A stretch of DNA of 64,000 bases from Thermodesulfobacteriota bacterium (GTDB taxonomy: Bacteria; Desulfobacterota_D; UBA1144; Nemesobacterales; Mycalebacteriaceae). Shown here in pieces: positions 2,705-50,776 of this stretch; position 1 is the first letter of the stretch, and every line of letters begins with the position of its first letter. The notes below the pieces were generated by a model. It had not been told where the DNA came from. It saw only the letters and a list, made by a program, of their open reading frames with translations, and did not search any database. The stretch covers positions 886,570 to 950,569 of the forward strand of contig OZ242184.1 of assembly GCA_965205855.1 (NCBI GenBank), written 5' to 3'. Position numbers and translations under genes: made by a program.

Positions 2705-3414
2705 CAAACCGCAATATAAAAAGCTGCGAGGCTTTGGTTATAAAAAAAACTCCGCTCGGCGAATCCGATATCGCGGTTGTGTTTTTCACAAAAGAGTTCG
2801 GCAAGCTCAGAGCGACGGCAAAGAATGCGGTTTCGAGCAGAAAAAGATTCGGCGGTCGGCTTGAACTTTTCACCCGTCTGAAAATTGAACTGAGAAAGAC
2901 CCTCGCGGGTACGACAACGCTGGAAAGCGCGGAATTGATAAAGAGTTTTGAAGATGTGGTAAAAGACATGAGAATCTTTCTCAAGGCAAACTGCATTGTT
3001 GAGTTTATAGACGCGGCACTACCGGAAAACGAAGAGCCGTGTGAAATAATGTTCACTGAAGCGCTGAAAGCCTTTTCATCAATGGAAAAAGGAGACGGGA
3101 TTGCGGCGATGATAAAATTCCAAATGGTCTCTCTTGAAACCCTCGGATACGGAGCGGATTTGTCGCGTTGTGGCGAGTGCGAAAGAAATGATTTCGCACG
3201 TGGGTCGCTGGTTTTTTCGACCGGTCTTTTCCTGTGCGACGAGTGCGGACGCAAAGAGGTAGCAAAGCCCGCGAAGAAAATCATGCGCGCAAACGCCCTC
3301 GTAGAAGACGAAGACGCGTTTGAAACCATCAACTGCCTGAACGCTTTCTTTCAATATCAGACGGGAAAAATATTGAAATCCGCGAAAGTTCTGGAGAGTA
3401 TGTTGCTGATATGA
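2701..3414 (+). CDS. recO: DNA repair protein RecO.
   Basis: It has an N-terminal OB-fold-like region and a C-terminal Cys4 zinc motif (CGECE...CDECG), at 237 aa, with a 4-nt overlap with mgtE. Confidence 0.7.
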   Translation: MTNRNIKSCEALVIKKTPLGESDIAVVFFTKEFGKLRATAKNAVSSRKRFGGRLELFTRLKIELRKTLAGTTTLESAELIKSFEDVVKDMRIFLKANCIVEFIDAALPENEEPCEIMFTEALKAFSSMEKGDGIAAMIKFQMVSLETLGYGADLSRCGECERNDFARGSLVFSTGLFLCDECGRKEVAKPAKKIMRANALVEDEDAFETINCLNAFFQYQTGKILKSAKVLESMLLI

Positions 3415-26960: not shown

Positions 26961-27738
26961 CCTTTTTTTCCTCCGAATATAAAAGTCGTATTGAAGAGAA
27001 AGGTTTTTTTTGAAACAACTCCACAATTTCTTTTTTCGCAAGTTCAAGAATCGCCATAAAAGAAATAACAATATGTCTCTTTGATGGCGCGCCGTCCTCA
27101 AAAAGCATATTGAAATCTTCTATAACTTTCTTCTCTTTTATCTTTTCATGTATCTCGGCAATTCGCCGCTCCACCGACACGGGGTCTATGACAAAGGTTA
27201 TGTCTTCGGTGTCATTTTCGTTGATTCTCGCTCTCATCTCACACAGGGAAGCGATAAGTTTCCACACACCGGACGTTGCCGTTTCGGTTTCAATTTCCGG
27301 ATCGCCGAATTCCTCCGCATATCCGTATCCTTTTACAAACACATCCCTGCCCAGTAAATTCATATCAGCCATTTTCATCGCGACATCACGAAACCTCTCA
27401 TATACAACCAGCCGCCTCGCAAGTTCCATGCGAGGGTCGAGCTGCGAAACTTCATCCTCTTCTTCGGTACGGGGTAAAAGCATTTTGGATTTTATAAAAC
27501 CCAGCTCCGCAAGGAGGGGAAGATAAGCCCCAATGGCGTCAAGGTCGCACTCTTCAATCATTGTCAAATGGCGGTTGTACTGGTCGGAAATTTCCGAAAT
27601 TGGAATGTCATAAATATTTATTTCGCTTTTTTTAACGAGAGAAAGCAGAAGGTCCAACGGGCCTTCAAATTCTTCAATATCAACCGTATAAAAGTCTGTA
27701 TGCGTATCGTCGGTCAATTTTTGCTGTTTTTCCGTCAT
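26929..27738 (-). CDS. scpA: Segregation and condensation protein A.
   Basis: It is a kleisin with N- and C-terminal winged-helix regions, at 269 aa, directly upstream of scpB. Confidence 0.75.
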   Translation of the reverse strand: MTEKQQKLTDDTHTDFYTVDIEEFEGPLDLLLSLVKKSEINIYDIPISEISDQYNRHLTMIEECDLDAIGAYLPLLAELGFIKSKMLLPRTEEEDEVSQLDPRMELARRLVVYERFRDVAMKMADMNLLGRDVFVKGYGYAEEFGDPEIETETATSGVWKLIASLCEMRARINENDTEDITFVIDPVSVERRIAEIHEKIKEKKVIEDFNMLFEDGAPSKRHIVISFMAILELAKKEIVELFQKKPFSSIRLLYSEEKKDGEKTDKENG

Positions 27739-42788: not shown

Positions 42789-43547
42789 TCAATTATGCCA
42801 CAAAAAGGGATGGAGTGTCAAACTATACGGCGACCGCCTGATAGTCGGGGAGTTCACCCATTGTTTTCCCTCAAGAGCGCGTCCCGTCTTCTTTTTGTTC
42901 ACACCGCCCCATTGTTTGAAGAAAAACGGAACCCCGCTTTCAACGCAGTTGTCCCTGATTTCCGTAACCCATTCCTCTTTCATCGGTCTTGCGCCGGGGC
43001 CGGACTCTCCACCGACAATGACCCAGTCTATGCCTGACAAATTGAGGTTTGGAAACGGGGCAAGCAACGGTTCAAGAGAAAGAAACTTCACGCAAGCATC
43101 GGTCTGTTTTAAAACTTCTGTACGGGAAAGATATTTCTCGGACTCTACGCTTGTTCCCATCCAGATGTTGGAAGTCCAGTGCAGGTGTTTGTTCGCCTTC
43201 ACAACCCTTTCCGGTCTTTTTGTGAGAACCTGAAAAGTGTGTTGAGATGCTTCGTTCATAACTTCAAAAACGGACATAATGAATTTTGCGGGAACATCCT
43301 TGTGGAACAAATCGCTCATTGAATTGACAAAAACTATTTTCGGTTTTTTCCATTTAAGCGGGTCTTTCAAAGTGTGTTCATGAGTGGTGAGTTTGAAACC
43401 GTTTCTGTATTTCTCCATCCCTTGAGCGTGAAGCCGCTTTGCCATCCGCTCGGCGTAGCAGTATTTGCAACCGTGGCTGATTTTTGAACAACCGGTAATG
43501 GGGTTCCATGTTGTGTGAGTCCATCCTATTTTGGAGGGTTGGGTCAT
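42789..43547 (-). CDS. Phage Gp37/Gp68 (DUF5131)-like three-Cys protein.
   Basis: Its N-terminus is [26 protein letters not shown] (C-x6-C-x2-C). The start ATG overlaps the res stop (TAATG). Confidence 0.55.
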
Positions 43548-46090
43548 TACTGTTTGTTGATAACACCGTTTATATCGTCCCGCCAGCTGTCTTCAAACAT
43601 CATCCTGAAAGTAGCGGGCGTCTTATTGATGGCCATTTCGCCTCTGTCAAGGGCGATCCTGTATGTTTTTTCAAGCGTGTCGAGCAATTTTTTCTTGTAA
43701 CTCGTATCTTCGCTGCCTTTCAGGTGGATGCCCTTTGTTTCCAGAATTAGCAGTTTTCCGTTATCTTTTCGGCAGGCCACAAAATCGGGATACACGCGCT
43801 GGCGTCGCCAGCCTTGCAGATAGTACGCTTGTCTTGCAGCTATTCTGTGCCACCAGTAGATGGCGTTGCTCTTATCCAGATAAAGCGCAAAATCCCGCTC
43901 CAGACCGTTAAAACTACTTTCATAAACAGGTTCAAAAAGGTTTTGCTGTATAGGTCTGCCATGTTCGCTCTGTAATGATCTTTCTTGACTGGAAACAAAA
44001 ACCTCGAACGACTTGCTCAATTCGTAGTCCAGTCGCTGGTCGGTCTCAAGGTGAAACCGAATCACATTCCGCCCAACCTTTTCCCGAAACACCGCTTCGG
44101 CCTCGTCGTCTATGGCCTTGTTCACGCGGCGGCTCAATTCTTCGGAAAGGTAAATTCGGTTATTCAACAATTTGCTTTCATCGTGTTTCCTGTTTTTATG
44201 TGTTTGAATAAACCCCTCCGCCATGCGCGCCGCCTGCCACGGATTGGGCACCTTGTCCACAAGCCGCCGAACAAAATAATCCACGCTCAGCCGCTTTTCG
44301 CTGTCAGGGATTTGTTCCGAAGCCTTAACCTGCCCTTGAATGTCCACCGTGGTTTTGATCTCCTGAGTGATGTCTCTATCATCCAGATTCACCGCTGCGC
44401 CCGCGTCAATGGTGTCCCAATCAATCGCGCTTAATATATCGCGGTCGTAATCAATGGGGCGCCAGGTGCGCCCCGCTTTGTGTAACACCTGCGGGAGAAA
44501 AATTTTCAATGGCCGGTATTTACCACGACGTTTGACGGTGGTCGGTTTCGGTGCATCGCCCTCGCCATGCCCGTGAACAAAATCGCCAAGCCCGGTCAGC
44601 CCTTCATTCTCCAGGCCGGCCTTCACGCCTTTGATCGCCTTGCCTACGACCTGATTATAGCAATAGATATAACACTGGTTCAGCGCATCGCCTTGTGCGA
44701 TTCTGCGTGCATGGGGTTGCCGCATCACCCGACCGACCATTTGCGTGATGGCGGTGGTTGCGGTGGTGTTATCCAGCAAGGCAAGCAGATATGCAAACGA
44801 GCAATCCCAGCCTTCTTTCAGCGCGTCTTTGGTGATAATCCAGCGCACCTCGCTTGTCTCGCTCAACAAATCCTCACCCGCAAGTTCCTTGCGTTCCGAT
44901 GATTGAATCCTGATGTGATTCTCCGGCACAGCAAGATTTTGTATCAGGTATTCGCGCGCATCCTCCGAATGAATTTTTCCTTGCCCTCTTTGTTTTGCGC
45001 CCGTTCTTTCCACCCTGACCAAAGCGATGGGTCGGATATGGCGGTTTTCCTGTTCCTGTAATTTTTGCGCCGCACTTTCAAGCTCATCCAGTTTTTCCTG
45101 TGTTTTGGCAAGCGTGTGTTCCCAGTCGGAATTGCTGAAACTGTGAATCTCTATCGGCAGTTTGATCATCTCCTCGTCCTGGAGGTCGCGGCCCGATGTG
45201 TTGACCAGGATATTGCTGATGCCGATTTTCGGCGTGGCGGACAGTTCAAGCACAAAACGGGGGTTGAGCCGGTTGACGGATTTGACAAACTCCTGGTTGT
45301 TTTGATTATTCGGTCCATATGCTTTATGCGCTTCGTCCAAAATCACCGTGGGACGAATCAGTTTCAGCACATTGATCAGGCTTTGCTTAACCCAGTCGCC
45401 GGGTGCATTTTTCTCCAGGTCGGGATGGTGTTCCGAAAGCGTTGCATTGGCCGCCGCGTCATCCTGCTCGGGAAAAAACGACATATACCCGCTGCTGTCG
45501 CGGAATATTTTGAGAAACTCCCTGTTCTTTTGCCGGTTGGCGGAGGGTAGCATCAGCAGCATAATGCAAAGATAGTTTTCGGTATCCTGTCGGGTAAAGC
45601 GGTCGGTTTTTTGCAACAATTTGACCCTGCCGCCAGACATATGTTCGAGCATCTGCCGGTAGGTATGTTCGCGGGTGTGGAACGCCTGGCGGGTCTGCTC
45701 GTAGATCGCCCGGGTCGGCACAATCCACAACACAAAGCCGGTATCCCGCTTGATCCGCTCAAGCGTGGCCACGCCCAACAGCGTCTTGCCGCCGCCGGTC
45801 GGCACCTTCAGGCAAACATGCGGGATGGGTTCGCCGGATGCCGCAGTGCGGGAAATGTAGCCGGGAACTGCCATGTCACCGTCTTGGGAAATGCCGGGGA
45901 GGATATTTTGATCTTTCAGCGCCTTCCAAGCTAAGAGGGGATAGTTTTGCAGTTCTTCAGGAATATCAATCCCCGACTCTTCAAGAGCTTTGCCCGCCTT
46001 TTCACTAGTCAGCCGCGCTTCCTTGAGCGCGTCCAGCCAGCGGTCTAACTGTTCAAGAGCTTGTTGCTGATAGTTTTTCAGGGAGAGCAT
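43547..46090 (-). CDS. res: Type III restriction enzyme Res subunit (SF2 helicase plus C-terminal nuclease).
   Basis: It has Walker A (VPTGGGKTL), DEAH (ILDEAHKA), motif VI (QMVGRVMRQ) and a C-terminal PD-(D/E)xK-like ILETKG. The start is set at MLSLKNY (46090), 1 nt after the upstream ORF stop. Confidence 0.75.
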
Positions 46091-46091
46091 A

Positions 46092-46649
46092 TCACGGATT
46101 TTTTGAGTCAGTACTGTCTGAATTATTTGGCAAATTGATGATTTCAACAGGCACATTCCTTTTACCAACTGCAAGACCGACAGCGTAGTTACGGATAATA
46201 GTTTGATCCATTTCCATATCCGCATAGCCTTGTGGATAGTACGAACCCCTTAGAATTTCCATCTGTTCTACCTTAAAATCTAGCACCTTGGCCATTGAGC
46301 TAAGCATCTCCGTGAGCAATTCCATTTGCTCCTTGCCGAGTCGTTCATAGTGCGAACGAGAATCATTTTCTTCGTTAGGCCTCTTAGCATGCGTTTCACC
46401 ATAATGCTTGCGGAGTGCTGCCCATTTTTCTATAACTTCTTTATGCTTAACAAATTCTATCTCAACCAGATTAATGGCTCCGACATAATCAGGTGATAAA
46501 CGCGCATTTCGTGTACGCATTAACGTCTTGAATATATCCATTTTTCGCGCCTTTTGTTCGCGCCATCTGTCAAGAAGACCGTTAACCCAGACAGCTGCGC
46601 AAGGACCGATTAAGATGGCTGCAATGGTGATGATAGAATATGAATTCAT
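46092..46649 (-). CDS. Membrane-anchored hypothetical protein embedded between mod and res.
   Basis: It has one N-terminal TM helix (IITIAAILIGPCAAVWVNGLL) followed by a charged helical domain. It lies 2 nt after the mod stop and 1 nt before the res start, and is visibly AT-richer than its flanks. Confidence 0.6.
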   Translation of the reverse strand: MNSYSIITIAAILIGPCAAVWVNGLLDRWREQKARKMDIFKTLMRTRNARLSPDYVGAINLVEIEFVKHKEVIEKWAALRKHYGETHAKRPNEENDSRSHYERLGKEQMELLTEMLSSMAKVLDFKVEQMEILRGSYYPQGYADMEMDQTIIRNYAVGLAVGKRNVPVEIINLPNNSDSTDSKNP

Positions 46650-46651
46650 GT

Positions 46652-48208
46652 TTATCTTATACCCTCATATGGTAATTGGGCAAAAGTTATCCCCATCTCG
46701 GTTAATGCTTTTTGTCCCATGAATTTGTGAGTGGCGAACACCACCGCGGTTTTCTTTTTTGCCTTGGCCTGTTTGGCGATGCGTTCGGCGCGGGTGCTGT
46801 TCAAAGCGGAATCCGCACTGCGCAGAAAATCAAGGTTCGGCTCGTAGATCAGGTAAAACATTTTGTCACCTGCTTCATAAAATAAACCGTCTTTGCCACG
46901 CCTTGTTTTCGGGTTGAGTTTATGCGGCGATTGTCCGCTTGCGGTATAGATCAGATGGCGGGCAAAGGTTTCATAGCCCGGCAGGTTCCTGCCGGTGAGC
47001 ATTTTTTCAATGCTGATTTCATCGCCCAGTGTGCAATAGGCAAAACTGCCGCCCAGTCCGTTTTTTAGGTTCTCATCCTTTGCTTTTGGTATGCCCTTTA
47101 TCACACGGCGAACGCGCTCGGCGGTGATTTTGTCGGCGTAGTCTTCGCATTCCACCAAGATAAATTTGCGGTTGCCGCCGTCTTCCTTGTTCAGCGCAAG
47201 CACGGCGTGGGCAGTGGTGCCGGAACCGGCGAAGGAGTCGAGGATAATGGCGTTTTTTGTCGTTGCCAGTTGTAAAATCTTTTTCACAAGGGAAATTGGT
47301 TTGGGGTTTTGGAACTGATTAGAACCAAACACCGTCCTCAACTCGATTGTGCCGTTGGTTGTTGTACCTACATCATCCCACCAAGTGCTAGGCGTTAACC
47401 CCCTTCGGCGTGCCTCTGACAAAAAACGTTTGCGCTGAGGTCTGGAACTATTTCTCTTTCCGAATACGATTCTATTGTCTGCAAGAAGCTCCTCAAATTT
47501 GTTCAAATCGTTTTTCCAGCAATTACCTTCAGTGGGGTAAAATATTTCTTTTGTTTTAGGGTTTCTTATCGGATACATCTGATTAGGTCGAACCCCACCA
47601 GCCTCAAATGGATCCGCCTTCCATGGGCCTCTCGGATCATTATCAGGATTTTTGAATCCTTCTAAAATGGCAGGAAGTTTGAAATCTTTTCTAATGGTTT
47701 TTAATACATTCAGTTGTTTAGCATAAGCTATATTATGAGTGTGTGATATTGATACTAATGCAGGATTTGTAATTGATTTTGTGCTATGCCACACAAAATC
47801 TGCAACAAAATTCTCCTCCCCAAAAATCTCATCCATGACCATCCGCAGGCGGTGCTGTTCATTGTCGTCGATGGAAATAAAAATTACGCCATCTTCGGCC
47901 AGCAATTCTCTTAACAACTGCAATCTTGGCCACATCATGCACAGCCATTTGTCGTGCCGCTCCAGGTCTTCGCCATCCACCGGACTTTTGCCTTTCAGCC
48001 ACGCCTTCATCATCGGGCTGTTGACATTGTCGTTATAGACCCATTTCTCATTGCCGGTGTTGTAGGGCGGGTCGATGTAAATGCAGTTGACGCGGCTGGC
48101 ATAGCGCGGCAGCAACGCCTTGAGCGCGTGCAGATTGTCGCCGTGGATAATCAGATTGTCATCAAGGGAAGGGTTACCCCCCCATTTTTCGCTGAAAGAG
48201 ATTTTTTA
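46652..48208 (-). pseudogene. mod: Type III R-M Mod subunit (beta-class N6-adenine methyltransferase) with its 5' end disrupted at a G7 tract; candidate phase-variable gene in the OFF state.
   Basis: DPPY (motif IV) precedes ILDSFAGSGTTAHAV (motif I). Mod-like sequence (DDNLIIHGDNLHALKA) continues upstream of the annotated TTG (48115) to a TAA at about 48208, with no ATG. An upstream ATG ORF (48291..48151) is in another frame and crosses the G7 tract at about 48177-48183. Confidence 0.7.
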
Positions 48209-48284
48209 GTGTCTATCTCAAGTGTCCTGGACGGAACAGTCAGGTGGTGCGCATAAATGAGTTGCTTCCCTTTGAAATCAATTG

Positions 48285-48448
48285 TCGGCATTGAAAACCC
48301 CGTAAATCAGTTTGATATTGGCTTTGAAGATACCCGATTTACTCCCCCAACCTAAACCCCTCAACCTCCCGATGCACCGCCCCTTCCCGTCTCAATTCAC
48401 TCTCCATCAAACAAACTCTTTCAGAAGCAAAACCAAGTTCAAACTGCG
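48285..48448. repeat. Direct repeat copy A of the thpR 3'-terminal sequence (about 164 nt).
   Basis: It is near-identical to copy B and about 90% identical to copy C over tcagtttgatattggctttgaa...caaactgcg. It abuts the mod upstream ATG on one side and the IS fragment on the other. Confidence 0.8.
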
Positions 48449-48768
48449 CCCGCGGTGACATGGAGAACCGGATCAAGGATCAGCAGTTGGATTTGTTTGC
48501 GGATCGCACCTCTTGTCACCGCTGGTGGCCCAACCAGTGCCGGCAGTTGCTGTCAGGGTTGGCTTACACGTTGATTGAGGGATTGCGGCGCCTTGCACTA
48601 CAGGGCACCGAACTGGCCAAAGCCAGTCCTCACAGGATCAGGCTGACACTGCTTAAAATCGGTGCCGTGATCATCCGCAACACGCGCCGCATCCGCCTAC
48701 TGATGAGCAGTGCTTATCCCCATCAGGCGTTGTTCCGCACGGCAGCCTATCGGCTCAACTCCCCATAA
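48449..48768 (+). mobile_element. C-terminal fragment (about 100 aa) of an IS1380-like DDE transposase; IS remnant.
   Basis: ENRIKDQQLDLFADRTSCHRWWPNQ ... LAYTL ... RLTLLKIGA matches the conserved C-terminus of IS1380-family transposases. There is no N-terminal catalytic part, and it starts exactly where repeat A ends. Confidence 0.55.
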
Positions 48769-48959: not shown

Positions 48960-50099
48960 TTATTTTCGGATGAGAAACAGAAATTCTTTATTCGGATCGC
49001 TGGATTCCCGCAACCACTCATTTGTCCATTTCATGGCGGCCATCACATTTTTTTTATACTCAATTTTTGCGCTATCCACAATTTCTCCGTTACGCGTTAT
49101 CACCTCGTTTAATTCCTCCGCGGTTGCTCGTCCACCGGAACTGTAAGAGAGCAAGATCCATCGGCAAGGAGTTTCCTTCAGCAAACGCTCTATGGCTTCC
49201 ACCACAACCAATCGTCCTGATTTGCTTCTACGAAATTCCTCGAACACTGAAGTCGCCACTTTATCGGATGTGTCTTTTCTGCGGAGGGACTTGCCAAATA
49301 GCACGGGATGATCATTTTTACATATGGTCGTCCACAAATGATAATATGAAGCGTACCGAACCCTTGAAGGTGGCATTTTTTCATTGTTTGACCCATACGG
49401 AGGATCAAAATAAGCAAGATCGGCGTCCGCTTCGGGAAGTACCTTAAAAACATCACCACACAGCACCGTGTTTTCGATTTCATTTTTCCACAACCGTGGC
49501 ACTTTCAATTGTAAATTTTTGAATGAACGCGGCGACCAATCTTTTAAATAAGAAACAAAATGACCAAGAGTACTGTCTATCTCATTCAACCCTAAAATCA
49601 GGCTTGTCAATGCCACACTTTTGGAAACGTCATCCAGCATCAAGGCATCGATCTCTCTCCTGATTGCATCAAGTTTTCTTGTATTTTTTTTCTGCCAAGG
49701 CTTTTTGGTTCCATCCTTCTGAATAGCATTATGGCAAGTTCCAGAGCGAACATCACCACCGTAATTCTCAGTAAACCATCCGTCTTCCGGAGGAAGCGAA
49801 TTTAAATGATCAATAAGAGGTTGGTATATTTTCGGGTTTTTTAAGTTTTTCAAATAGCACGTGGCAAAAATTCTTGACCATTCGGAAATATCATTTGATA
49901 CCACGCGATATCCTGCTTGTGCAAAAGATTGACTTACTCTGGTGGAGCCTGAAAAACCGTCAAAAATGCTTTTTGCTCCGGTCTGTTTTGACAGATTAAA
50001 AATATGTGGAAGCAGTTTCAGTTTTGAGCCTGCGTAATTGATGCCTTCGGTTTTTGGAACATCAATCCAATCACGAAAAATTTGAACTTGCCCTTGCAT
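48960..50099 (-). CDS. D12-class (Dam-family) N6-adenine DNA methyltransferase.
   Basis: It has the N-terminal INYAGSKLKLLP motif (compare Dam WAGGK..LL) and FDPPYGS (motif IV), at 379 aa. Confidence 0.7.
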   Translation of the reverse strand: MQGQVQIFRDWIDVPKTEGINYAGSKLKLLPHIFNLSKQTGAKSIFDGFSGSTRVSQSFAQAGYRVVSNDISEWSRIFATCYLKNLKNPKIYQPLIDHLNSLPPEDGWFTENYGGDVRSGTCHNAIQKDGTKKPWQKKNTRKLDAIRREIDALMLDDVSKSVALTSLILGLNEIDSTLGHFVSYLKDWSPRSFKNLQLKVPRLWKNEIENTVLCGDVFKVLPEADADLAYFDPPYGSNNEKMPPSRVRYASYYHLWTTICKNDHPVLFGKSLRRKDTSDKVATSVFEEFRRSKSGRLVVVEAIERLLKETPCRWILLSYSSGGRATAEELNEVITRNGEIVDSAKIEYKKNVMAAMKWTNEWLRESSDPNKEFLFLIRK

Positions 50100-50776
50100 T
50101 ATGTAACTTTAAAGCGGGAAGCCTGCTTGAGTCTAACAATATCATCTTTCACTTTTGCAAGAGCCTCATTCTGGCCGAAATCAGAAGAAACAAGCGCGTG
50201 AGAAAATAGTTGGACCAAGATAGGATTGTGAGAATAATCAACCCATCCATTGGTTATGCTATCAAAATAGTTTAAACCACTTTTTGTATGAGTCCAAAGC
50301 CCTCGCTGGAGGGCATTGGCGGTTGCGCTTCCATAACGCACCTCGCAAATATAAGAATCGCTTGCATCGTAGAAACGATATACTGGGTGCTTTCTACCTT
50401 TCTTTTTTGTTTCTTTTACTATTTTCACCGTTTCAGTTTCAGCGCGGTGGTAATCGAAGACAAGAATATTACACTGTCGATTTTTTTCGTCATAAATTAA
50501 TGGCAAAACATTTACATTGTAAAAATCCGAGAAAGCGGGGTCGGCAAGCACTCGTTGTACATTTTTCTTGCCCACTATTTCATCCCCCTCTTGTGCCAAT
50601 CTCGGAAACATTTTGAAATTCTTGTCGGTTGAAAGTTGAAGGGGACCATCACCATACGCTTTGATGCTAACAGGAAATTCAGCTTCGGTTACTTCATTTA
50701 TTATTTTGATGTCTTCTTCCCGAGATTTGGCTCTGTATAAATCTTTGCCAACATGGATCGAGCGAAAATCATACAT
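50099..50776 (-). CDS. Candidate Type II restriction endonuclease (C-terminal part?), paired with the Dam-like methyltransferase.
   Basis: Its stop overlaps the methyltransferase start. The 225-aa product has no recognised motif, and a 69-aa ORF abuts it 1 nt upstream in another frame. Confidence 0.35.
   Translation of the reverse strand: MYDFRSIHVGKDLYRAKSREEDIKIINEVTEAEFPVSIKAYGDGPLQLSTDKNFKMFPRLAQEGDEIVGKKNVQRVLADPAFSDFYNVNVLPLIYDEKNRQCNILVFDYHRAETETVKIVKETKKKGRKHPVYRFYDASDSYICEVRYGSATANALQRGLWTHTKSGLNYFDSITNGWVDYSHNPILVQLFSHALVSSDFGQNEALAKVKDDIVRLKQASRFKVT

What the first reader, a model, noticed from the sequence alone, without database searches (positions are those of the whole stretch)
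48151..48291. G7 homopolymer tract splits the mod gene: candidate phase-variable Type III methyltransferase (phasevarion) in OFF phase
The main mod reading frame has no ATG. The annotated start is a TTG at 48115. Conserved Mod sequence (DDNLIIHGDNLHALKA, matching the region before DPPY in EcoP15I-type Mod) continues upstream of it to a TAA at about 48206-48208. An ATG at 48291, in another frame, opens a 46-codon ORF (MPTIDFKGKQ...KNGGVTLPLMTI*). This ORF runs through a G7/C7 tract (+ strand C at about 48177-48183) and stops 10 codons later. One extra G (G8) would fuse it in-frame to the main body (...KNGGGNPSLDDNLIIHG...), giving a full-length ~546-aa Mod. Homopolymer or short-repeat tracts in the 5' end of Type III mod genes are the classic slipped-strand switch in several host-adapted bacteria, and Res is inactive without Mod. 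By my reading of the printed sequence the tract is 7 nt, which agrees with the ORF track.
Basis: seen in the sequence. Interest (0 to 1): 0.7.

Follow-up and report, generated by a model that had tools for sequence, protein, structure and literature searches.

The report
Poly-G on/off switch in methylase gene
A run of seven G's splits the DNA-methylase gene of a restriction system in a sponge-symbiont genome, and relatives carry repeats of many different lengths at the same spot, so it is most likely a known kind of reversible genetic on/off switch, caught here in the off position.

Summary
A G7 tract (minus strand, 48183-48177) separates a 36-codon conserved Mod leader (ATG 48291) from the otherwise intact 500-codon mod body. 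G8 or G5 would give a 546-aa protein. The leader is real Mod sequence: about 540-550-aa homologs cover 99-100% of the repaired protein, and several leader residues are invariant. The switch reading is supported by comparison. In 77 family members, 65 of 66 genes without a repeat are in frame, while 9 of 11 with a repeat at this linker are out of frame (Fisher p = 3e-9) although their bodies are intact. The repeats are G7, G9, G10, G11, G24, C9-C17 and (CA)13. Cassettes 92-94% identical to the window carry G9, G11 and G24. Leader, body and res all show purifying selection (dN/dS 0.15-0.27). Other C7 runs in the window lie in intact genes, so assembly error is unlikely. Caveats: G7 is a short tract (at one published cut-off, below a stricter one), no read-level heterogeneity could be checked, and any regulon effect is untested. 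This is a new member of a known kind. The modest novelty is the setting: a horizontally shared cassette in sponge symbionts, with repeats gained several times at one site.

The parts
48177..48183 (-). G7 homopolymer tract (C7 on the plus strand), the proposed slipped-strand switch. G8 or G5 would be ON. G7 is OFF.
   Evidence: Homologous positions in relatives hold G9 (L002), G11 (L004) and G24 (L029).
48184..48291 (-). Conserved Mod leader, codons 1-36 (MPTIDFKGKQLIYAHHLTVPSRTLEIDTKKSLSAKN), in the frame of ATG 48291.
   Evidence: F6, G8, K9, H16 invariant in 51 homologs. dN/dS is 0.15-0.27 in this frame.
48151..48291 (-). The 46-codon ORF as it stands: the OFF-state product, a leader plus 10 out-of-frame codons ending at TGA 48153-48151.
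46652..48176 (-). Mod body in the main frame (…NPSLDDNLIIHGDNL… to the stop at 46654-46652), intact, about 500 codons. DPPY and FAGSGTT motifs are present.
   Evidence: PF01555; 6K0W, 4ZCF, 7DSU; PADLOC MTase_III.
48113..48115 (-). TTG used by gene callers as the start of a 487-aa product. That product would lack the leader, a core strand and most of the following helix.
   Evidence: (P0001).
47250..47786 (-). Central variable region of mod (target-recognition domain). It is only 15-55% identical between alleles whose flanks are 85-100% identical.
46092..46649 (-). DUF6680 gene (185 aa) inserted between mod and res, 2 nt after the mod stop and 1 nt before the res ATG.
   Evidence: PF20385, E = 6e-47. 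Also present in L029.
43547..46090 (-). res (847 aa), the Type III restriction subunit, intact.
   Evidence: PF04851; PADLOC REase_III, positions 2-879 of 883. dN/dS 0.19-0.20.
42789..43547 (-). DUF5131 gene (PADLOC PDC-M41B/M30B candidate defence protein). Its start overlaps the res stop, and it lies just outside the 92-94% shared block.
48460..48768 (+). 5'-truncated IS1380-family transposase remnant at the upstream edge of the cassette.
   Evidence: PF13701, profile positions 332-431 of 435, E = 8e-34.
48960..50776 (-). Adjacent complete Type II restriction-modification pair: REase 50776-50099 and D12-class MTase 50099-48960.

Best explanation
The G7 tract is a simple-sequence-repeat contingency switch inside the coding sequence of a Type III mod gene. 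Slipped-strand mispairing during replication adds or removes G's. With 8 (or 5, 11 …) G's the conserved 36-residue leader is fused through a Gly-rich coil to the methyltransferase core, and full-length Mod (546 aa) is made. With 7 G's, as assembled here, ribosomes starting at ATG 48291 stop after 46 codons and no functional Mod is made. Res depends on Mod for DNA recognition, and res lies downstream in a tightly packed operon (mod, 2 nt, DUF6680, 1 nt, res), so both methylation and restriction should then be off. Shown here: the anatomy; that the leader belongs to Mod; that this linker carries repeats of different types and lengths across relatives; that frame breakage is tied to the repeat; and purifying selection on all parts. 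Inferred: that switching is reversible and frequent enough to matter in this host; that the OFF state silences Res; and the biological pay-off (bet-hedging between phage defence and DNA uptake, and/or epigenetic regulation). The cassette (43582-48279) is shared at 92-94% DNA identity with a Halieaceae MAG and a Ca. Spongiihabitans MAG, while the window's host is Dadabacteria-like. The switch therefore travels with a horizontally transferred module among sponge symbionts.
For: Anatomy. The leader is real Mod sequence: homologs of about 540-550 aa cover 99-100% of the repaired protein; tract-free relatives read …KSLPAKGQKPSLDDNLIIHGDNL in one frame; leader residues are invariant or at least 90% conserved. 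Repeats at the same linker: L002 G9, L004 G11, L029 G24, L022 G10, L072 G9, L001 C13 and C17, L079 C16, L080 C9, L083 (CA)13; L092 C11, L093 C14, L096 C9, L097 C14, L095 C34. Association: with a repeat 9 OFF and 2 ON, without a repeat 1 OFF and 65 ON, Fisher p = 3.3e-9; the ON fraction is compatible with a random one-third (p = 0.36); all repeat-bearing bodies are intact at 488-515 codons, whereas the one repeat-less broken gene (L068) is a true pseudogene. Near-identical alleles differ in tract: C11 vs C9 at 96.3% identity in two samples of the same syntenic locus, C13 vs C34 at 95.7%, and a C14 ON allele (P0245) in the same ≥90% identity protein cluster as OFF alleles. Selection: dN/dS 0.147 for the mod body, 0.15-0.27 for the leader, 0.19-0.20 for res. 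TRD mosaicism. At least five separate clades carry repeats. In the AF2 model the repeat maps to a coil between strand 22-26 and strand 45-48. Assembly control: the other C7 runs lie in full-length DHODH, AlaS and HisD, and the A/T runs of 8 or more that lie within long ORFs do not interrupt them. Published cut-offs: G/C of 7 or more is used for phase variation in Campylobacter (PMC6321876); G[n] tracts in Type III mod genes are a described class (PMC5909438).
Against: G7 is short. It is below the 9-nt cut-off used by the Type III mod survey (PMC5909438), and PhasomeIt's authors warn that tracts at their lower cut-off may mutate at less than 1e-5 (PMC6321876). No reads were available, so no within-population heterogeneity is shown for this locus. 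All four alleles of the window's own clade (G7, G9, G11, G24) are OFF, so no ON allele of this particular cassette was seen (expected by chance about 20% of the time). L002 also carries an extra C in the leader, hinting at some decay in that relative. Long tracts in long-read metagenome assemblies (G24, C34) have uncertain lengths. A G/C run of 7 is not statistically rare in this window.
Confidence: 0.74

Rival explanations
1. Fixed pseudogene: a one-off frameshift at a mutation-prone homopolymer has inactivated mod for good. The tract has contracted to a length that no longer switches, and the system is on its way to decay.
For: G7 is below the 9-nt criterion (PMC5909438). All four alleles of this cassette clade are OFF. 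L002 has a second indel in the leader. L084 shows an interrupted, out-of-frame remnant of the tract. L068 shows that true pseudogenes exist in this family.
Against: The frameshift is the only lesion. The body (500 codons), res (847 aa) and DUF6680 are intact. dN/dS is 0.15-0.27 for the leader and body between two OFF alleles, which would not be expected if they were dead for long. The tract is uninterrupted, and its length differs in every relative.
Confidence: 0.14
2. Assembly or sequencing artefact: the true tract is G8 and the gene is a single uninterrupted ORF.
For: Homopolymer length errors are the typical error of long-read assemblies. Many related loci come from long-read metagenome assemblies (contig names), and long tracts there are uncertain.
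Against: Three other C7 runs and the A/T runs of 8-9 that fall within long ORFs lie in uninterrupted ORFs, with end-to-end profile matches for the C7-bearing genes. The suspected break at 27004 is just the scpA/scpB junction. Seven bases is a short homopolymer for consensus error. Short-read-style assemblies (L022, L092, L096) also show out-of-frame tracts.
Confidence: 0.07
3. Recoding: full-length Mod is made constitutively from the G7 template by programmed -1 ribosomal frameshifting or by transcriptional slippage on the G run, so the gene is not really OFF.
For: Runs of identical bases can promote polymerase or ribosome slippage (general knowledge). A -1 shift on U GGG GGG would restore the frame.
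Against: Relatives are offset by +1, +2 or 0 with no consistent frame relation, which recoding would require. There is no stimulatory RNA structure downstream (z = +0.64). The base before the run is T, so the heptamer is not a canonical slippery site.
Confidence: 0.03
4. The TTG-initiated 487-aa protein (the annotated product) is the functional Mod, and the upstream ORF is irrelevant.
For: The Pfam N6_N4_Mtase domain starts after the TTG (residue 68 of the repaired protein). A weak promoter-like match lies at 48162-48134.
Against: The missing 59 residues include a leader conserved across 51 homologs. They also include the NLIIHGDNLHALKA segment, which is conserved down to EcoP15I and H. pylori Mod and forms a core strand and helix before motif IV in the model. 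No tract-free homolog starts there; short calls coincide with repeat-bearing genes. The promoter scan is not above background in a meaningful way (7 found vs 3.6 expected, all 9 of 12 matches).
Confidence: 0.02

Closest known systems
Helicobacter pylori modH / modJ / modL and Campylobacter upsaliensis modU (Type III mod genes with mononucleotide G[n] tracts; PMC5909438)
   Same: A Type III beta-class N6-adenine methyltransferase gene with a poly-G tract inside the ORF, whose length sets the reading frame. Multiple alleles differ in the central target-recognition domain. The closest solved structure by sequence is an H. pylori Mod (6K0W, E = 1e-67).
   Different: The host is an uncultured sponge symbiont (Dadabacteria-like), not a pathogen. 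The tract is only 7 nt here. Res is intact and under selection. An extra gene (DUF6680) sits between mod and res. No methylome, switching-rate or regulon data exist.
Haemophilus influenzae / Neisseria modA phasevarions (tetranucleotide repeats in the 5' part of mod; PMC4525171, PMC5909438)
   Same: An SSR in the 5' coding region of a Type III mod gene gives random ON/OFF expression, with allelic TRD variants.
   Different: The repeat unit differs (tetranucleotide vs mononucleotide). For modA, switching and a regulated gene set are shown experimentally. Here they are only inferred from comparative genomics.
EcoP15I / EcoP1I Type III restriction-modification enzymes (PDB 4ZCF)
   Same: The same two-subunit architecture (Mod plus an SF2-helicase Res) and the same motif order. 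The segment just downstream of the tract aligns with EcoP15I Mod residues 92-252.
   Different: EcoP15I has no repeat tract and is not phase-variable. Its N-terminal 90 residues are not detectably similar to the 36-residue leader of this family.
Restriction-modification systems enriched in, and laterally transferred among, sponge symbionts (PMC8163846)
   Same: The cassette is shared at 92-94% DNA identity between symbionts of different phyla or classes, and close family members are almost all from sponge-associated MAGs.
   Different: That work did not report repeat tracts or phase variation. Searches of the paper library for sponge symbionts together with phase-variable methyltransferases or simple sequence repeats found nothing relevant.

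Membership tests
Type III restriction-modification system | Mod is a beta-class N6-adenine DNA methyltransferase (motif IV DPPY precedes motif I FxGxG, with the TRD between them). | tested here: met
   PF01555 E = 7e-32. DPPY and FAGSGTT are in that order. PADLOC MTase_III E = 4e-160. PDB hits to Type III Mods 6K0W, 4ZCF and 7DSU.
Type III restriction-modification system | Res subunit with SF2 helicase motifs, full length, encoded downstream of mod on the same strand. | tested here: met
   PF04851 ResIII. PADLOC REase_III covers profile positions 2-879 of 883, E = 6e-213. Gene order is mod, DUF6680, res with 2-nt and 1-nt spacers.
SSR-mediated phase-variable mod gene | A simple sequence repeat lies inside the ORF, so that changes in unit number shift the frame. 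| tested here: met
   G7 lies between the conserved leader and the core. G8 or G5 restores a 546-aa ORF.
SSR-mediated phase-variable mod gene | Tract length is at or above the length shown to switch at high rate. | tested here: inconclusive
   It meets the G/C ≥7 cut-off of PhasomeIt (PMC6321876) but fails the ≥9 cut-off of the Type III mod survey (PMC5909438). Sister cassettes have G9, G11 and G24.
SSR-mediated phase-variable mod gene | Tract length differs among closely related strains or alleles, with both ON and OFF states observed. | tested here: met
   G7/G9/G11/G24 occur among cassettes 92-94% identical. C11 vs C9 at 96.3% identity in one syntenic locus, C13 vs C34 at 95.7%, and ON alleles L001b, L072 and L097. 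No ON allele was seen within the window's own four-member clade.
SSR-mediated phase-variable mod gene | Length heterogeneity within a single population (reads or colonies). | not testable with these tools
   No reads are available. Exact-protein look-ups for the window's own genes found no other assembly.
Phasevarion (phase-variable regulon) | Multiple mod alleles differ in the central TRD. | tested here: met
   Body residues of about 121-280 are 15-55% identical between alleles whose flanks are 85-100% identical.
Phasevarion (phase-variable regulon) | ON/OFF switching changes genome methylation and the expression of a set of genes. | not testable with these tools
   This requires methylome and transcriptome or proteome data from ON and OFF variants.

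The most novel reading that the evidence does not exclude
One Type III mod/res family, circulating by horizontal transfer among sponge symbionts of many phyla (Dadabacteria-like, Gammaproteobacteria, Nitrospirales, Dehalococcoidia, Actinobacteria-like), has gained hypermutable repeats (poly-G, poly-C, CA) at least five separate times at the same coil between a conserved leader and the catalytic core. On this reading, stochastic on/off restriction-modification is a recurrent, selected trait of the sponge microbiome, a bet-hedge between phage defence and gene uptake, and not something peculiar to small-genome pathogens.
Probability: 0.45. Interest if true: 0.6.

Novelty: new member of a known kind. 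Interest (0 to 1): 0.47.

Why it matters
Phase-variable Type III methyltransferases are well known in host-adapted pathogens and were predicted by sequence survey in some environmental bacteria. Here the same device appears in an uncultured sponge symbiont, on a cassette shared across phyla, with independent repeat gains at one structural position. If switching is confirmed, methylation state and restriction barriers inside the sponge microbiome would be heterogeneous and dynamic. That bears on phage-host dynamics, on the extensive lateral gene transfer reported among sponge symbionts, and on methylation-motif-based binning of such metagenomes. There is also a practical annotation point: gene callers systematically mis-start these genes at downstream TTG or ATG codons, which hides the switch.

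Tried and rejected
1. Exact-protein look-ups for the window's Mod call (P0001), its DUF6680 and the 46-aa leader ORF, meant to find the same strain in other samples, found nothing on record.
2. A metagenome scan with both tract flanks found nothing. The second scan, with the right flank only, gave 8 loci, mostly non-sponge intact alleles. These were useful for defining the tract-free (likely ancestral) linker but gave no sister alleles.
3. My first hand translation of L004 (G11) as in frame was wrong. The script shows it is out of frame.
4. A suspected A8/T8 frameshift at 27004 turned out to be the scpA/scpB gene junction.
5. Programmed frameshifting was considered and rejected: there is no downstream structure and no consistent frame offset among relatives.
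6. The promoter/terminator scan around mod was uninformative, with only weak matches near background.
7. An internal ATG just before the tract (AAAAATG) is in frame with the body only for G6 or G9, and the gene caller used it in L002. It has no obvious ribosome-binding site and is absent from L004 and L029, so a three-state switch idea was not pursued.
8. The first padloc call failed on a coordinate error and was redone.

Full report
**Observation.** On the minus strand there are exactly seven G's at 48183-48177 (regex). ATG 48291 opens a 46-codon ORF (MPTIDFKGKQ…KNGGVTLPLMTI*) ending at TGA 48153-48151. The long mod frame is open from the TAA at 48208-48206 down to the stop at 46654-46652 and reads …EKWGGNPSLDDNLIIHGDNLHALKALLPRY…. 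Its first canonical start is TTG 48115, giving 487 aa, which is exactly the protein deposited for this contig (P0001, 100% identity, 1.40-Mb contig). One added G (or two removed) joins the frames into a 546-aa protein.

**What the gene is.** The repaired protein is a Type III Mod. The evidence is PF01555, PADLOC MTase_III at E = 4e-160, and sequence matches to the solved Type III Mods of H. pylori (6K0W, 1e-67), EcoP15I (4ZCF, 3e-47) and Mycoplasma bovis Mbo45V (7DSU). Downstream on the same strand lie three genes:
- a DUF6680 gene (46649-46092), starting 2 nt after the mod stop;
- an intact res (46090-43547; PF04851; PADLOC REase_III covering 2-879 of 883), starting 1 nt after the DUF6680 stop;
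- a DUF5131 / PDC-M41B gene whose start overlaps the res stop.

Upstream lie a 5'-truncated IS1380-family transposase remnant (48460-48768) and a complete Type II restriction-modification pair (48960-50776). This is a defence island next to alaS.

**Is the upstream ORF really part of Mod?** Yes.
- Nearly all of the 120 best homologs are about 540-550 aa and cover 99-100% of the repaired query.
- Tract-free relatives read MPTLEFKGK…KSLPAKGQKPSLDDNLIIHGDNL in a single frame.
- In an alignment of 51 homologs, leader residues F6, G8, K9 and H16 are invariant and eleven more (M1, P2, L4, K7, Y13, H15, L17, V19, P20, R22, L24) are at least 90% conserved.
- An AlphaFold model of the intact close relative P0027 (pLDDT 85.8, pTM 0.82) places the repeat site in a coil between strand 22-26 and strand 45-48.
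- The TTG-start product would lack the leader, strand 45-48 (NLII) and nearly all of helix 51-62. These elements precede the DPPY strand and are conserved down to EcoP15I. A functional truncated Mod is therefore unlikely.

**Is the tract a hypervariable site or a one-off lesion?** I fetched 80 related loci from species-representative genomes plus others through exact-protein look-ups. I then scored the linker between the leader motif and the IIHGDNL motif.
- Of 66 genes without a repeat, 65 are in frame. The exception, L068, also has a broken body and is a true pseudogene.
- Eleven genes carry a G/C run of 7 or more, or a dinucleotide repeat, at this linker. Nine of these are out of frame, yet all eleven have intact 488-515-codon bodies.
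- The association gives Fisher p = 3.3e-9. The ON fraction (2 of 11) fits the one-third expected if tract length drifts (p = 0.36).
- The window's own cassette lineage shows G7 (window), G9 (L002), G11 (L004, Halieaceae MAG) and G24 (L029, Ca. Spongiihabitans MAG) at the homologous codon.
- Other clades carry G10, G9, C9, C13, C16, C17 and (CA)13.
- Three further short-called homologs were examined. Two hide C11 and C14 tracts upstream of a fallback start codon, and the third is intact and tract-free.
- At finer scale, the same syntenic locus from two samples (96.3% identical) has C11 versus C9. A third genome has C14 and a full-length protein with a PPPP run. Two alleles 95.7% identical from one metagenome have C13 versus about C34.
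- A distance tree on the non-TRD parts of Mod puts the repeat-bearing genes in at least five separate clades with different repeat types, which indicates repeated independent gains at this coil.

**Is the gene alive?** Nei-Gojobori dN/dS between the window and L004 is 0.147 for the mod body. For the leader read in the ATG frame it is 0.15-0.27 (against L004, L029 and L003). For res it is 0.19-0.20. The leader estimates rest on only about 25 synonymous sites, but all point the same way. The mod alleles are mosaics: the N- and C-terminal parts are 85-100% identical, while the central 160 residues are 15-55% identical. This is the target-recognition-domain shuffling described for phase-variable mod families (PMC5909438).

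**Could it be an assembly error?** The window has four G/C runs of 7 or more, which is the number expected by composition (3.85). The other three lie inside genes with end-to-end profile matches: DHODH, AlaS and HisD. The A/T runs of 8-9 that fall within long ORFs do not interrupt them; a few lie outside any long ORF. The one suspicious overlap, at 27004, is the scpA/scpB junction. A consensus error at a 7-mer is therefore unlikely, though only the reads can exclude it.

**Recoding** was considered. There is no RNA structure downstream of the tract (z = +0.64), and the frame offset differs among relatives, so programmed frameshifting is not supported.

**Host and mobility.** AlaS is 71% identical to that of Candidatus Mycalebacterium (class Ca. 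Dadabacteria), and the next matches are Thermodesulfobacteriota/Dadabacteria. DNA similarity to the Halieaceae and Spongiihabitans MAGs (92-94%) is confined to 43582-48279, the res-DUF6680-mod block, and stops at the mod start codon. The cassette has therefore moved between distantly related sponge symbionts, in line with published evidence that RM systems are enriched and laterally transferred in sponge microbiomes (PMC8163846).

**Comparison with what is known.** SSR-driven ON/OFF switching of Type III mod genes is well established. A REBASE survey found repeats in 17.4% of them, including G[n] tracts in H. pylori modH/J/L and C. upsaliensis modU, and noted examples in environmental bacteria (PMC5909438). 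That survey required mononucleotide tracts of 9 or more. PhasomeIt uses G/C of 7 or more but cautions that such short tracts may mutate at less than 1e-5 (PMC6321876). The window's G7 is thus at the bottom of the accepted range, while its sister cassettes are well within it. Library searches linking sponge symbionts to phase-variable methyltransferases or simple sequence repeats returned nothing relevant.

**Verdict.** It is best classed as a new member of a known kind. I put about 0.74 on a real slipped-strand switch caught OFF, about 0.14 on a locked or decaying pseudogene, about 0.07 on assembly error, and the remainder on recoding or a functional truncated product. The wider pattern is the more interesting result, but it remains comparative inference until read-level heterogeneity and methylation are measured. 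That pattern is convergent repeat gains at one coil of a Mod family that circulates among sponge symbionts.

Noticed in passing
window 46092-46649 (minus); L002 7630-8721; L004 6713-7999; L008 6723-7803; L013 6289-7426; L007 6631-7324: About 20 of the related Type III loci carry 0.5-3 kb of unrelated genes wedged between mod and res, while the others have the two genes abutting. The cargo differs: DUF6680 here and in L029, a class-3 lipase, DUF1828 plus an unknown, an extra N6/N4 methyltransferase, a weak HEPN-like protein, and several ORFs with no Pfam match. It looks like a cargo slot inside the operon, possibly for accessory defence genes.
   Followed up: partly
window 48460-48768 (plus): A 5'-truncated IS1380-family transposase remnant (Pfam DDE_Tnp_1_4, profile positions 332-431 of 435) lies about 170 bp upstream of the mod start codon. 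Similarity to the other cassettes ends at that start codon, so the remnant marks the insertion edge.
   Followed up: partly
window 48960-50776 (minus) and 42789-43547 (minus): A complete Type II restriction-modification pair (REase 50776-50099, D12-class MTase 50099-48960; lower G+C, about 0.38-0.43) lies next to the Type III operon. A DUF5131 / PADLOC PDC-M41B gene is translationally coupled to the end of res. Together with the Type III operon they form a defence island beside alaS.
   Followed up: partly
L001 5822-9156 (ENA ERZ25069810 ctg135816): Two mod genes sit in tandem, each with its own poly-C tract (C13 out of frame, C17 in frame), with different target-recognition domains and no res gene nearby. 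These may be two independently switching orphan methyltransferases.
   Followed up: no
L002 5894-6034: Besides G9, this relative has an extra C in the leader (CACCCACC against CACCACC in the window), a second frameshift. The gene caller used the ATG that directly abuts the G tract (MGGGNPSLDD…). This is either decay in that lineage or a sequencing error at a short C run.
   Followed up: no
L004 5123-5146 and L029 5109-5144: In two sister cassettes the G tract is followed by TAATAATAATAG, which puts four consecutive stop codons in one of the OFF frames. L004 also has a 12-nt tandem duplication (TCTTTCAGCGAA) just before the tract.
   Followed up: no
L084 about 3050-3250 (WASV01076517.1): A relative in which the tract position reads GAAAAAGAGGGAGAAAGGGG, an interrupted G run, and the leader is out of frame with the body. 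This may be a decayed former switch.
   Followed up: no
locus list as a whole: The closest 80 members of this Mod family in species-representative genomes are almost all from sponge-associated MAGs spanning many phyla (Poribacteria, Dehalococcoidia, Nitrospirales, Binatia, Latescibacterota, Spirochaetia, Cyanobacteria and others). Some genomes carry two to three copies (OY761015.1, OZ241845.1).
   Followed up: no
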